Of a stretch of DNA of 64,000 nucleotides, positions 53,574 to 56,389 are shown in pieces (position 1 is the stretch's first letter; each line of letters starts with the position of its first letter). This DNA is from Escherichia coli (GTDB lineage Bacteria > Pseudomonadota > Gammaproteobacteria > Enterobacterales > Enterobacteriaceae). A program made the translations under genes and the position numbers. The notes below the pieces were generated by a model. It had not been told where the DNA came from, made no database searches, and was given only the letters and a program-made list of their open reading frames with translations. The stretch is taken from assembly GCF_011045215.1 (NCBI RefSeq), contig NZ_CP049201.1. One strand, 5' to 3'.

Positions 53574-53600
53574 TAAAAAGGGCGAAATGCCCTTTTTTTA
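53574..53600. terminator. Bidirectional terminator between yifE and yifB
   Basis: aaaaagggcgaaatgcccttttttt. Confidence 0.7.
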
Positions 53601-55001
53601 TGTCAGTAGTTTTTGCAGATGGATGAGCAAACGGTCAATCGCACGATAGCTAACTGCCTCCTGCAAATGCTGACGTGTGATAATGTCAGACTGATCAATA
53701 TCAGCAATGGTTCGTGCAACTTTCAATAACCGCTGCCAGGCACGAATCGATAACCCCAGATGGATCAGCGTTTCTTCCAGCCACTGCGCATCTTCGCTCT
53801 CAAGCTTGCAGAATTTGCGTATTTCCGGACTATCCAGCCAGGCATTCAGTTTATTCTGCCGCTTAAATTGGCGCTCTCTGGCGGCCATTACGCGTTGTTT
53901 AACGGTGGCGCTGCTTTCTCCCGGCACTACCGTTTTACTCAAAATGCCGGGGGGTGGTAATGGGATCTCCAGTGAGAGATCGAAGCGGTCGAGAAAGGGC
54001 CCCGAGAGCCGGTTGAGATAACGTAATGTCTGTTCTGGCGTGCAGCGGTTATGGTTTCCCTGATAATGTCCGGTAGGGCTGGGATTCATCGCCGCAACAA
54101 GCTGGAAACGGGCTGGATAGGTTATTTTTGCTCGTGTGCGTGAAAGATGGATCTGCCCGGATTCAATCGGCTCTCGCAAAGCATCCAGTGTACGCCGTTC
54201 AAATTCAGGTAGCTCATCAAGAAAAAGCACGCCGTTATGCGCCAACGAAATTTCACCAGGCCCTGGAATTGCACCACCGCCCACCATCGCAGTTAACGAC
54301 GCACTGTGATGCGGTGAGCGGAACGGGCGCTGCCGCCATTGTTTTTGTACTGATTCAGCATTTACCAGACTTAATATCGCAGCGCTCTCCAGTGCCTCTT
54401 CATTGCTTAAATCTGGCAAAAGACCATTAATACGGCTGGCGAGCATTGTTTTACCTGTTCCCGGCGGTCCAATCAGTAAAAGGTTGTGCCCACCAGCGGC
54501 GGTAATTTCCAGTCCTCGCTTTCCTTGCTCCTGACCGACAACATCACTGAGATCATGTTGTAGCGCCCGGGATACTGCATCAGTTGGTTTCGGGCGTTCG
54601 AGAGTGTGCTTACCTTCCAGAAACGCACAGACAGCCTGCAGATGATCGGCTATCAAGCATCCTTCTCCGTTAATTAGCCCCACTTCATCTTCGTTATCTT
54701 TCGCGACGATAATTTTTCTGCCCGACTTAATAGCTTCAGTTGCACTGGAGATTGCGCCGGGAACGCCACGCAGAGCGCCTGTAAGCGCCAGTTCTCCGAC
54801 TAATTCATATTCATCTAACTTATTGGCTGTAAGCTGTTCTGAGGCCGCCAGCAACGCAATGGCGATAGGTAAATCATATCGTCCCCCTTCTTTTGGTAGA
54901 TCGGCTGGAGCAAGGTTAATGGTGATTTTTTTCGCCGGATATTCATATCCGCTATTTATAACTAAATTCGCATAACTTATTGAATCTAATTGATAAATCA
55001 C
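53598..55001 (-). CDS. yifB: YifB/ComM Mg-chelatase-like AAA+ ATPase, 5'-truncated with an element-derived 14-codon N-terminus
   Basis: ORF begins MIYQLDSISYANLV and then joins the conserved INSGYEYPAKKITINLAPADLPKEGG; the remembered native N-terminal ~45 residues (MSLSIVHTRAALGV...) are absent; Walker A GPPGTGKT present. Confidence 0.8.
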   Translation of the reverse strand: MIYQLDSISYANLVINSGYEYPAKKITINLAPADLPKEGGRYDLPIAIALLAASEQLTANKLDEYELVGELALTGALRGVPGAISSATEAIKSGRKIIVAKDNEDEVGLINGEGCLIADHLQAVCAFLEGKHTLERPKPTDAVSRALQHDLSDVVGQEQGKRGLEITAAGGHNLLLIGPPGTGKTMLASRINGLLPDLSNEEALESAAILSLVNAESVQKQWRQRPFRSPHHSASLTAMVGGGAIPGPGEISLAHNGVLFLDELPEFERRTLDALREPIESGQIHLSRTRAKITYPARFQLVAAMNPSPTGHYQGNHNRCTPEQTLRYLNRLSGPFLDRFDLSLEIPLPPPGILSKTVVPGESSATVKQRVMAARERQFKRQNKLNAWLDSPEIRKFCKLESEDAQWLEETLIHLGLSIRAWQRLLKVARTIADIDQSDIITRQHLQEAVSYRAIDRLLIHLQKLLT

Positions 55002-55386
55002 ACTATAAATAACGTTAGAAATCGCAAATTAACTACACCATTAACTACACCGTTCGGTGCACTGTATGGAACAACTTGGAACAAATAGACACAAGCGATA
55101 TACAGGAAGGGACAATTTTTCTATGCAGATTTGCATAGTTCCAAATGAAGCTGGTGGATGATCAGGGATAACCCGATATGGGAATCCCCATATCGGCATC
55201 GCGTAGTTAATCGTAGTGGCTACCGTAGTAGCCTCCGTAGTTGAGTCGCAGGGATGTAACAACCTGCCAGGAAGGAAATGATCGTGACTCGCCGTGACAT
55301 GACGTGATTAATCGTGACACCAAACAAAAAGCCTTACCCGTAGGCTTAATGCTTGGCTTGACTGTAGGCTTACCGTAACGCGCCGC

Positions 55387-55566
55387 TCACCGTCGCAGCC
55401 TGTCCGGTTTCCGCCACTGATACGGCCTCACATTATCATGCTGGTGGCGTTCCTGTTGCAGCACAACGGAAACAGGCGCTGAACACCTGTTAATTTTGCT
55501 TGCTGGTTGTTTGATTCCGGCAATGCTGCGGATCATCTTCAGCAAATCGGCTTCGGTGATGGTCAT
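55387..55566 (-). CDS. Possible small protein (59 aa) near element end
   Basis: Minus-strand ORF MTITEADLLKMIRSIAGIKQPASKINR... hand-translated; below ORF-track threshold; no clear RBS. Confidence 0.25.
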   Translation of the reverse strand: MTITEADLLKMIRSIAGIKQPASKINRCSAPVSVVLQQERHQHDNVRPYQWRKPDRLRR

Positions 55567-55589
55567 GGTTTACACCTTAGGAAATCTTA

Positions 55590-55860
55590 GGGGGCTGGTT
55601 GACACTTTCCGGCTTAAGACCTTAACAAACCTTAACATCGCAGGTTGACACACTTGACACTTTTTCGCGAAAAACCTTATCAAACCTTAGCATTTCTAAG
55701 CATGGCAACTTGACACTTTTCGCGATTTTTTTCGGCTTTTTGACGTGGTAAATCTGGCGCAAGGCCAGTAACGGCGGGGCTTACAGCGAGGTTGACACTT
55801 TTTCGCGTTCAGAGTGTAAAGTGTCAACCCGGCAAGCTGCTCAACTTGACACTTTTTGAT
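55590..55860. repeat. Array of at least 7 TTGACAC(T)n CGCG iteron-like repeats
   Basis: ggttgacactttcc, ggttgacacacttgacactttttcgcg, cttgacacttttcgcg, ggttgacactttttcgcg, gtgtcaacc (inverted), cttgacactttttgatg. Confidence 0.8.
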
Positions 55861-55861
55861 G

Positions 55862-56389
55862 TCATTGATGGTCTGATTTTTCCCATTCAGCCAGGGCGTT
55901 TAGCCCGGCTTCACTCCATGATTCCAGTTCATCGGCATAATCACCTGCAACATAGCAGAGTTCGCAACGCAGCATACGAATTGCCAGCCTGGCATTACCT
56001 CGCAAATTGTATTGTTCAAAGTAATGCTGCCCGTCGCAATCCTCAAGGCAGATAGCACCATCATCAAGAAAGTGCACTTCCCAGCCTAATTCCCCGGCTG
56101 CATCCAGCACACGCTGCTGTATGCCCTCGTCCGTTGCTGGCGCAGGAATTTTACCGTCTCTGGCCTTAACTGCTTTCCAGAACTCGCCCCACGTCATTTC
56201 CAGCGTTCTCTCTGGCCACATTTCAGAAACTGTGTCTTTTCCCTGTGCTGGTGGGCTGTTCCGCTGCTCTGTCGCTTCCACATCGATTTTTTTACCGGAC
56301 ATGACCACTTCGCCTTTCTCGATCCAGTCGTAAACTGTCTGGCGGCTTACGCCTTTGTGTTTGGCATATTCTGCCTTACTCATCAGCAT
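55862..56389 (-). CDS. HTH protein resembling phage small terminase subunit / packaging-redirection protein
   Basis: 175 aa; N-terminal MSKAEYAKHKGVSRQTVYDWIEKG helix-turn-helix typical of TerS-like proteins. Confidence 0.55.
   Translation of the reverse strand: MLMSKAEYAKHKGVSRQTVYDWIEKGEVVMSGKKIDVEATEQRNSPPAQGKDTVSEMWPERTLEMTWGEFWKAVKARDGKIPAPATDEGIQQRVLDAAGELGWEVHFLDDGAICLEDCDGQHYFEQYNLRGNARLAIRMLRCELCYVAGDYADELESWSEAGLNALAEWEKSDHQ

What the first reader, a model, noticed from the sequence alone, without database searches (positions are those of the whole stretch)
55270..55570. CGTGAC direct repeats and an unannotated 59-codon ORF near the element end
atcgtgactcgccgtgacatgacgtgattaatcgtgacacc contains four CGTGAC copies, followed by gtaggctta duplicated; a minus-strand 59-codon ORF (MTITEADLLKMIRSIAGIK...) lies just inside. 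These could be att-proximal integrase arm sites or regulatory sites.
Basis: seen in the sequence. Interest (0 to 1): 0.3.

Follow-up and report, generated by a model that had tools for sequence, protein, structure and literature searches.

The report
Phage-origin-like repeats in satellite island
The short repeats lie at the far end of a phage-parasitic island inserted in the E. coli comM gene; they are not integrase sites, and one set matches the replication-origin repeats of very common E. coli prophages, so it may bind a phage replication protein.

Summary
There are three exact CGTGAC plus one CGTGAT at an exact 10-bp period (55283-55318). A sister array of four CGTAGT (55202-55241) was missed. 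gtaggctta occurs twice, and there is a 59-codon minus-strand ORF (55387-55566).

The setting is the integrase-distal end of a PICI-type phage satellite inserted in comM. The integrase arm-site reading fails: the repeat block occurs with three different att/arm types, and about 97% of islands with this arm type lack it. Better arm-site candidates are 12-bp doublets found at both island ends.

The block sits in the island's 3' accessory hotspot, where relatives carry Fic, SocA or SEFIR genes.

CGTGAC at a 10-bp phase is the origin iteron of a large family of phage O-like replication initiators. It hit 106 viral contigs, and in 55 the array lies inside the initiator gene. This origin type is in 40% of complete E. 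coli genomes. Two adjacent island copies match phage Evi's origin 18/18.

Best reading: non-coding phage-origin iterons carried as cargo, binding a helper or competitor phage initiator. A functionless relic is a serious rival. The CGTAGT array is unexplained. The first gtaggctta forms the operon terminator. The ORF is real and conserved, with unknown function.

The parts
54947..54956 (.). att core (ATCCGCTATT) at the island/comM junction. comM (53598-55001, minus) loses its first ~44 codons.
   Evidence: The same 10-mer is at both ends of the homologous island L001, at 12047-12056 and about 23896-23905. The smrA-site relatives have TCACGATATT in the same position.
55028..55051 (+). Best candidates for integrase arm-type sites: ATTAACTACACC x2 in tandem, followed by TGGAACAA x2 at 55067-55086.
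   Evidence: The same doublets, in the same orientation, are on the integrase-proximal arm of L001 (23746-23769) and L003 (26815-26838). Other doublets replace them in islands with other att sites.
55145..55199 (.). Conserved terminal backbone module with the near-palindrome CCGATATGGG-AATC-CCCATATCGG (55173-55196). It is present whatever the integrase type. Function unknown.
   Evidence: Shared by the window, L001-L005, L009, L043 and L053. The left arm varies without compensating changes, which argues against an RNA stem.
55202..55241 (+). CGTAGT x4 array (spacing 10, 12, 12) with unrelated spacers. Unexplained sister array.
   Evidence: All four hexamers are kept in the window, L002, L003, L043 and L053; three are kept in L004; they are decayed in L005. 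No parallel was found in phages.
55283..55318 (-). CGTGAC/CGTGAT x4 at an exact 10-bp period, read as GTCACG on the minus strand. Phage-origin-type iteron array.
   Evidence: The pattern is in 106 viral contigs, and in 55 it lies inside an Evi-type initiator ORF. There is 18/18 identity with phage Evi origin iterons.
55319..55347 (-). Intrinsic-terminator-like hairpin plus T-run that ends the island's operon. It contains the first gtaggctta copy.
   Evidence: Conserved homology with about 800 related islands starts here.
55364..55372 (.). Second gtaggctta copy, in the 3' UTR 15 nt past the ORF's stop codon.
   Evidence: It is not strictly conserved: L001 has gtagcctta.
55387..55566 (-). 59-aa ORF, the last gene of the island's operon. 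Shine-Dalgarno AAGGTG at 55573-55578.
   Evidence: It is intact in 37 of 37 related islands. The 96-aa form keeps both termini. It hits phrog_1561 and phrog_7271.
55597..55861 (.). TTGACACTTT repeat field (6 direct plus 1 inverted TTGACAC; 55-bp units) between the TerS-like HTH gene and the small ORF. Context only; candidate packaging or regulatory site.

Best explanation
The window holds the integrase-distal end of a PICI-type phage satellite integrated in comM. Just past the terminator of the island's single long operon lies the accessory hotspot. In this island the hotspot holds no gene, only a ~120-bp non-coding block with two phased hexamer arrays. The CGTGAC array (GTCACG x4, one per helical turn, on the same strand as island transcription) is a set of replication-origin iterons. 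It is of the type used by a very common family of lambdoid-phage O-like initiators (the phage Evi type, annotated 'phage replisome organizer'). The island encodes no such initiator, so the protein that reads the array would have to come from a co-resident phage. The most likely mechanism is that the phage initiator binds the array. That binding would either soak up initiator once the island has amplified (a decoy that interferes with the phage) or give the island a helper-driven boost to replication. Shown here: the array, its phasing, its identity to phage origin iterons, its position in the hotspot, and its independence from the integrase. Inferred: initiator binding and any effect on fitness. 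The gtaggctta repeat is terminator and 3'-UTR sequence. The 59-codon ORF is a real, conserved small protein with a basic tail and unknown role.
For: Island identity and layout: with the PICI architecture from PMC6092414. Hotspot: relatives carry Fic (L006), SocA/Panacea (L009), SEFIR (L005) or ~570 bp of other DNA (L001) at this position. The minimal variant L024 joins the terminal module to the terminator with 15 bp. Iteron identity: the exact pattern CGTGAC-N4 x4 hits 106 IMG/VR contigs, against my own estimate of about 0.001 expected by chance. In 55 of the 106 the array is inside an ORF with the Evi-type initiator N-domain. Most of the others I looked at lie in other initiator-like ORFs, where the array encodes SRDVT-like repeats. 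These ORFs hit the PHROG 'replication initiation protein' families and are followed by a P-like loader or a DnaB-type helicase. The hexamer falls in all three reading frames, so the constraint is on the DNA. The enteric iteron consensus is ACRT-GTCACG-ACRW. Island copies 3-4 are 18/18 identical to Evi iterons (TGTCACGGCGAGTCACGA), and the only phage BLAST hits of the array are the O genes of three E. coli phages plus one Pseudomonas phage. This origin type is in 2186 of 5426 complete E. coli genomes. No island protein carries that DNA-binding domain. The island's own origin uses different iterons (GGTAGAYA). Hexamers are conserved while spacers differ: 8 of 8 hexamers are kept in three of the four distinct full-length variants, and substitutions and indels fall between them.
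Against: Only 24 of 5426 genomes carry the block, so it is dispensable for the island. In L003 two of the four hexamers have changed (CATGAC, GATGAC), and in L005 the block is decaying. There is no AT-rich unwinding element or initiator gene next to the array, unlike real origins of this type. The third copy is CGTGAT. Only 2 of 4 copies fit the flanking consensus. The 18-nt identity alone has BLAST E = 4. The partner CGTAGT array has no phage counterpart. No binding or phenotype data exist.
Confidence: 0.4

Rival explanations
1. Functionless relic. A ~40-bp scrap of a lambdoid phage origin, and an unrelated repeat next to it, were captured by recombination in the island's highly mosaic 3' hotspot and simply hitch-hike.
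For: The block is rare: 24 of 5426 genomes, against about 800-1000 with related islands. The region is mosaic, with different breakpoints in L001, L004, L005 and L009. Hexamers have decayed in L003 and L005. There is no flanking unwinding element.
Against: Within both arrays the hexamers are identical while the spacers are unrelated, which simple duplication followed by drift does not predict. The block is kept intact across three integrase and att backgrounds. No homology to the phage initiator gene extends beyond the iterons.
Confidence: 0.3
2. Binding sites for an island- or host-encoded protein unrelated to phage initiators. An example would be a regulator acting on read-through from the island operon into the downstream host gene (comM' here, smrA in relatives), or a factor acting on the circular form upstream of int.
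For: The arrays are phased direct repeats at 10-12 bp. The island end lies upstream of, and is co-oriented with, the truncated comM and, in relatives, smrA. Islands have other 10-bp phased arrays (TTGTTC/CGTTGT) between the alpA-like gene and int.
Against: No candidate reader co-varies with the block: L001, L002 and L003 share an identical AlpA-like protein but differ in having the block. The motifs differ from the int-proximal arrays. No promoter-like site is present.
Confidence: 0.15
3. Integrase arm-type or excisionase (RDF) sites of the attachment region.
For: The block is near the att site (240-360 bp from the core). Tandem phased repeats resemble lambda P'1-P'3. The first CGTAGT copy shares GTAGTTAAT with the inverted arm doublet.
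Against: The block occurs with three different arm and att types. It is absent from about 97% of islands with this arm type and from L001 at the same site. It is not found on the integrase-proximal arm.
Confidence: 0.04
4. An RNA-level element: a small RNA or a structured 3' UTR, for example a partner of the island's ProQ/FinO protein.
For: The island encodes a ProQ/FinO-family protein. Small hairpins exist in the block.
Against: Folding energies are not unusual: z = -1.7 and -1.2. There is no Rfam match. There is no promoter-like site. On the transcribed strand the arrays lie after the terminator. Variants show no compensatory changes.
Confidence: 0.05

Closest known systems
Replication-origin iterons inside the initiator gene of lambdoid phages (ori-lambda within gene O; here the Evi-type 'replisome organizer' family, PHROGs 1408/3729/15931)
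   Same: Four direct GTCACG repeats, one per helical turn, on the transcribed strand. There is 18/18 identity to two adjacent iterons of E. coli phage Evi, and the general consensus fits.
   Different: The array is not inside or beside an initiator gene. It has no adjacent AT-rich unwinding region. It is carried by a satellite that has its own primase and its own, different origin.
Helper cis-sites carried by phage satellites: the helper-like cos sites of EcCICFT073 and P4 (PMC6092414, PMC6739421)
   Same: A satellite carries a short non-coding copy of a helper phage's cis-acting site, so that a helper protein acts on satellite DNA.
   Different: Those are packaging sites read by terminase. 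This would be an origin-type site read by the replication initiator. The part of this island in the window has no lambda-type cosN.
Iteron titration (plasmid incompatibility by cloned iterons) and helper-type iterons on geminivirus satellites (my own knowledge; PMC10880892 appeared but was not read)
   Same: Extra copies of initiator-binding repeats in trans either sequester the initiator or allow trans-replication by the helper's Rep.
   Different: Neither effect has been shown for any PICI. The analogy is by mechanism only.
Arm-type integrase sites of lambda-family attP (P1, P2, P'1-3)
   Same: Short tandem direct repeats at about 10-bp spacing near an att site.
   Different: Defining properties fail here. 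See the membership test.

Membership tests
Integrase arm-type sites | Motif co-varies with the integrase and att type | tested here: not met
   The same block is found with three different arm doublets and att sites.
Integrase arm-type sites | Present in essentially all elements that use that integrase or arm type | tested here: not met
   The arm type is in about 996 genomes and the block in 24. L001, at the same comM site, lacks it.
Integrase arm-type sites | Copies on both arms of attP | tested here: not met
   No CGTGAC or CGTAGT is on the integrase-proximal arm of L001 or L003, whereas the 12-bp doublets are on both arms.
Integrase arm-type sites | Bound by the integrase N-terminal domain | not testable with these tools
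   Needs footprinting or gel shift.
Phage origin iterons (Evi-type O-like initiator) | At least 3-4 direct GTCACG repeats at a ~10-bp period | tested here: met
   Copies at 55283, 55293, 55303 and 55313; the third is CGTGAT. The phage arrays have the same hexamer and period.
Phage origin iterons (Evi-type O-like initiator) | Lies within or beside the cognate initiator gene | tested here: not met
   No island ORF matches the initiator N-domain profile; the best E-value is above 2.
Phage origin iterons (Evi-type O-like initiator) | Adjacent AT-rich unwinding region | tested here: not met
   The phages have ACAGATAAAGAT repeats after the iterons. The island has GC-balanced sequence and a terminator there.
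Phage origin iterons (Evi-type O-like initiator) | Bound by the initiator; supports or perturbs replication | not testable with these tools
   Needs gel shift or ChIP and replication assays.
PICI (phage-inducible chromosomal island, Gram-negative type) | Gene order int - alpA - pri/rep - ori - interference/packaging - accessory genes, transcribed in one direction | tested here: met
   Window genes are all on the minus strand: DUF4222, D5_N primase, ProQ, PerC, DUF2213 and a TerS-like HTH protein. The integrase and the AlpA-like gene are seen only in homologues L001-L003, because the island runs off the window.
PICI (phage-inducible chromosomal island, Gram-negative type) | Origin downstream of pri/rep with two iteron sets flanking an AT-rich region | tested here: met
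   GGTAGAYA and TCTACC iterons at 59842-60130. This matches the description in PMC6092414.
PICI (phage-inducible chromosomal island, Gram-negative type) | Induction and packaging by a helper phage | not testable with these tools
   Needs experiments. No lambda-type cosN is in the window part of the island.

The most novel reading that the evidence does not exclude
A phage satellite carries, as non-coding cargo in its defence and accessory hotspot, a decoy array of the origin iterons of the commonest E. coli lambdoid replication module. A second array (CGTAGT) may serve another initiator type. Once the island has amplified, the arrays would sequester the phage initiator and throttle phage replication, or let the island replicate on the phage's initiator. 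This would be a gene-free interference or piracy device.
Probability: 0.2. Interest if true: 0.7.

Novelty: new variant of a known kind. Interest (0 to 1): 0.42.

Why it matters
Satellite hotspots are currently mined for protein-coding defence systems. If a 120-bp gene-free block can act on a phage through its replication initiator, non-coding cargo would need to be included in such surveys, and there would be a new, easily testable mode of satellite-phage conflict. The analysis also gives practical annotation: where this island's att core, likely arm sites, terminator and origin are. It further shows that GTCACG at a 10-bp phase marks replication origins in many phage genomes, including prophages in 40% of complete E. 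coli genomes. If the block is only a relic, the finding is ordinary mosaic DNA at an island end.

Tried and rejected
- **Lambda-type cos site.** GGGCGGCGACCT has no better-than-chance match in the island, unlike EcCICFT073 cos1 and cos2.
- **Is the 175-aa HTH protein an Rpp?** It has no sequence match to any solved structure, Rpp included. It shows only weak hits to HTH_17 and to the TerS N-terminus.
- **Known RNA family.** None found. Fold z-scores are unremarkable.
- **Promoter scan.** Nothing found.
- **BLAST of 55150-55900 against phages.** No match at E <= 0.01.
- **Island Rep iterons.** They differ by Rep type, and none is GTCACG or ACTACG.
- **CGTAGT array in viruses.** The fixed-spacing pattern gave 5 hits. 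One lies in a lambda-O-like initiator (L161), but that iteron is a longer unit (TCAACGTAGTAGAC), so the link is weak. The variable-spacing pattern returned mostly perfect 12-bp coding tandem repeats. BLAST of the array against phages gave nothing.
- **Mini-ORF ATGATCGTGACTCGCCGTGACATGACGTGA.** The peptide is not conserved: MIVTRRDMT here versus MTDDDMA in L003 (read).
- **Small ORF.** pN/pS is 0.59 and variable sites are spread evenly over codon positions, which is inconclusive. Pfam gave nothing, the solved-structure (PDB) sequence search gave only insignificant hits (E >= 0.2), and tblastn against phages gave nothing. The AlphaFold model has low confidence (pLDDT 67, one helix), so no fold search was run.
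- **Literature.** I found no report of helper-origin iterons on a PICI.

Full report
**1. Setting**

The window is E. coli chromosome (atp, rbs, an rRNA operon, hdfR, maoP). The comM gene (53598-55001, minus strand) lacks its first ~44 codons, because a mobile element is inserted there.

All element genes in the window are on the minus strand:
- DUF4222 protein
- D5_N-type primase
- ProQ/FinO protein
- PerC
- DUF2213 protein
- a 175-aa protein with a TerS-like or excisionase-like helix-turn-helix domain
- the 59-aa ORF

Homologous islands that are complete in public genomes add an Icd-like gene, an AntA/B gene, an AlpA-like HTH gene and a tyrosine integrase at the far end. This is the architecture described for Gram-negative phage-inducible chromosomal islands, or PICIs (PMC6092414).

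The island runs off the window at 64000, so its integrase is not visible here. The finding therefore lies at the integrase-distal end of a PICI-type satellite.

**2. The observation**

- The quoted string is at 55281-55321.
- It holds three exact CGTGAC and one CGTGAT, starting at 55283, 55293, 55303 and 55313. That is an exact 10-bp period, with unrelated 4-nt spacers.
- Such clusters are rare. The whole window has 7, against 0.93 +/- 0.93 in simulations, and 5 of the 7 are in the island.
- gtaggctta occurs at 55340-55348 and 55364-55372.
- The ORF is at 55387-55566 on the minus strand, with AAGGTG six bases upstream of its ATG.

**3. Anatomy of the island end**

Comparing both ends of the homologous island L001 gives a 10-bp core, ATCCGCTATT (window 54947-54956). 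Moving inward from the core:
- ATTAACTACACC x2 (55028-55051) and TGGAACAA x2 (55067-55086).
- A conserved module with a near-palindrome (55145-55199).
- The two hexamer arrays.
- A terminator-like hairpin plus T-run on the minus strand (55347-55319).
- The ORF.

Homology with the ~800 genomes that carry related islands begins at about 55320, which is at the terminator.

**4. Why these are not integrase arm sites**

- The 12-bp doublets and the TGGAACAA pair recur, in the same order and orientation, on the integrase-proximal arm of L001 and L003. The hexamer arrays do not.
- Islands at other att sites have other doublets: TTCTATACACATT x2 in L004, L009 and L043, and AAGTACCCCCAA x2 in L053. L043 and L053 nevertheless carry the complete hexamer block, and L004 part of it.
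- The ATTAACTACACC arm type is in about 996 E. coli genomes, while the block is in only 24.
- L001, at the same comM site and with an AlpA-like protein identical to that of block-bearing L002 and L003, lacks the block.

The arrays therefore neither track nor are needed by the integrase or the AlpA-like protein.

**5. Where the block sits**

Between the terminator and the terminal module, relatives carry a range of inserts:
- a Fic gene in L006
- SocA/Panacea in L009
- a SEFIR gene in L005
- ~570 bp of other DNA in L001
- only 15 bp in L024

This is the 3' accessory region known for PICIs. In the present island the 'cargo' is just the ~120-bp non-coding block.

**6. What the CGTGAC array resembles**

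A scan of viral contigs for CGTGAC-N4-CGTGAC-N4-CGTGAY-N4-CGTGAC found 106 contigs. From the pattern's information content I estimate about 0.001 would be expected by chance. Only one of the 106 is this island.

Location of the array in those contigs:
- In 55 of the 106, the array lies inside an ORF that carries the N-terminal domain of one replication-initiator family, with the motif WLRLWHDMPNDPKW.
- That family hits the PHROG 'replication initiation protein' families. It is followed by a P-like helicase loader or a DnaB-type primase-helicase, and lies downstream of cI/cro-like genes.
- Most of the remaining contigs I inspected place the array in other initiator-like ORFs, where it encodes SRDVT-like repeats after a basic stretch.
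- One places it beside a perfect DnaA box.

The hexamer recurs every 10 bp and so falls in all three reading frames. The constraint is therefore on the DNA, not the protein.

By analogy with ori-lambda inside gene O (established knowledge), these are origin iterons.

Match to the island array:
- In E. coli phage Evi, five GTCACG lie at spacings of 10, 10, 11 and 10 bp, followed by an AT-rich repeat.
- The enteric consensus is ACRT-GTCACG-ACRW.
- The island's copies 3-4 are 18/18 identical to adjacent Evi iterons, spacer included.
- The only phage-database hits of the 55-nt array are the O genes of Evi, vB_EcoS-640R1 and vB_EcoS-813R8, plus one Pseudomonas phage. These are individually non-significant (E = 4) but fall exactly in the iterons.

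This origin type is in 2186 of 5426 complete E. coli genomes. The island encodes no protein with that DNA-binding domain. Its own origin, just downstream of the primase gene, uses GGTAGAYA iterons, and other Rep types in relatives use yet other iterons. GTCACG is on the same strand as island transcription, as it is in the phage initiator genes.

**7. Interpretation**

The best-supported statement is that the CGTGAC array is a phage-origin-type iteron set carried by the satellite outside any initiator gene.

What it does is inferred. Binding of a co-resident phage's initiator could titrate that protein once the island has amplified, or could recruit it to the island.

Points against a function:
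- The block is rare.
- Two hexamers are altered in L003, and the block is decaying in L005.
- No unwinding element is adjacent.

A functionless recombination relic is therefore a serious rival.

Points in favour of selection:
- Both arrays keep identical hexamers with unrelated spacers.
- Three of the four distinct full-length variants keep 8 of 8 hexamers, while substitutions and indels accumulate between them.

**8. The CGTAGT array**

This array remains unexplained.
- Its first copy shares GTAGTTAAT with the inverted arm doublet.
- It does not behave as an arm site (section 4).
- It has no convincing phage counterpart.

**9. gtaggctta**

The first copy is half of the terminator stem. The second lies in the 3' UTR and is not strictly conserved.

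**10. The ORF**

- It is intact in 37 of 37 related islands, with 24 distinct alleles and lengths of 59, 60, 63 or 96 aa.
- It is found in E. coli, Salmonella and other Escherichia.
- The 96-aa form has a different middle, yet keeps the first 24 residues and the C-terminal Y-x-W-K-K-P-x-R-L-R-R. It thus keeps the reading frame across an unrelated insert, which is the best evidence that the ORF is translated.
- The C-terminus hits phrog_1561 and phrog_7271, both of unknown function.
- pN/pS is 0.59 and is uninformative at this low divergence.
- Pfam and tblastn against phages gave nothing; the solved-structure (PDB) search gave only insignificant hits (E >= 0.2). The AlphaFold model shows one helix (residues 5-16) and otherwise low confidence.
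- RefSeq already annotates it as a hypothetical protein.

**11. Verdict**

The arm-site reading is rejected. The CGTGAC array is most likely a copy or mimic of a common prophage origin's iterons, sitting in a satellite's accessory hotspot. Its function is untested. Interest is moderate: the question is cheap to test, and if the array is functional it would be a new, gene-free form of satellite-phage interaction.

Noticed in passing
window 59830-60135: The island's own replication origin. GGTAGAYA iterons are direct at 59842-59866 and 59929-59945. TCTACC copies are inverted at about 60030-60130. They flank an AT-rich stretch just downstream of the D5_N primase gene. Relatives with other Rep types use other iterons (CGGGATAC in L003, TACCCA in L001).
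   Followed up: partly
window 55597-55861: A dense field of TTGACACTTT repeats (6 direct plus 1 inverted TTGACAC; 55-bp units that also hold CCTTAnCAAACCTTAnCAT). It lies between the 175-aa TerS-like HTH gene and the small ORF and is conserved in about 800 genomes. It is a candidate packaging or regulatory site. The island part of the window has no lambda-type cosN, and the HTH protein has no match to the solved Rpp structures.
   Followed up: partly
IMG/VR loci L054-L159; phage Evi (L164 2889-2935): GTCACG at a 10-bp period, usually next to a short AT-rich or pyrimidine-rich repeat run, marks replication origins embedded in initiator genes across many phages (GC 41-73%). It gives those proteins recurring SRDVT/SRNVT/CHD peptides in their linker. 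The Evi-type version is in 40% of complete E. coli genomes, often annotated only as hypothetical protein.
   Followed up: partly
window 53598-55001 and 54947-54962: comM is interrupted by the island. A GTG at 55001 opens a fusion ORF whose first 14 residues (MIYQLDSISYANLV) come from island DNA and which continues in frame into ComM residue ~45 onward. Relatives at the other att site sit directly upstream of smrA in the same orientation. Whether the island end supplies expression signals to the downstream host gene was not tested.
   Followed up: no
window 55145-55199: A terminal backbone module with the near-palindrome CCGATATGGG-AATC-CCCATATCGG and two DnaA-box-like 9-mers on the minus strand. 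It is present in every island examined, whatever the integrase type or cargo. Its function is unknown.
   Followed up: partly
L001 22409-22462; L003 25481-25534: Other 10-bp phased arrays (TTGTTC x3 then CGTTGT x3-4) lie between the AlpA-like gene and the integrase gene of related islands. They are plausible AlpA or Int regulatory sites, with motifs unlike those in the finding.
   Followed up: no
L001 12303-12870: At the same comM site, strain ETEC1748's island has ~570 bp of unannotated DNA in place of the repeat block. Part of this DNA is shared with L004 and L006. It may hold a small non-coding or very short coding cargo.
   Followed up: no
window 62765-63967 (minus) and 62648-63629 (plus): The 400-aa minus-strand ORF has only a C-terminal repressor-like PHROG hit and overlaps two plus-strand ORFs that have no family match. 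It is probably over-called, and the island's regulatory region here needs proper gene calling. GCCAGA recurs at 63629, 63650 and 63673.
   Followed up: no
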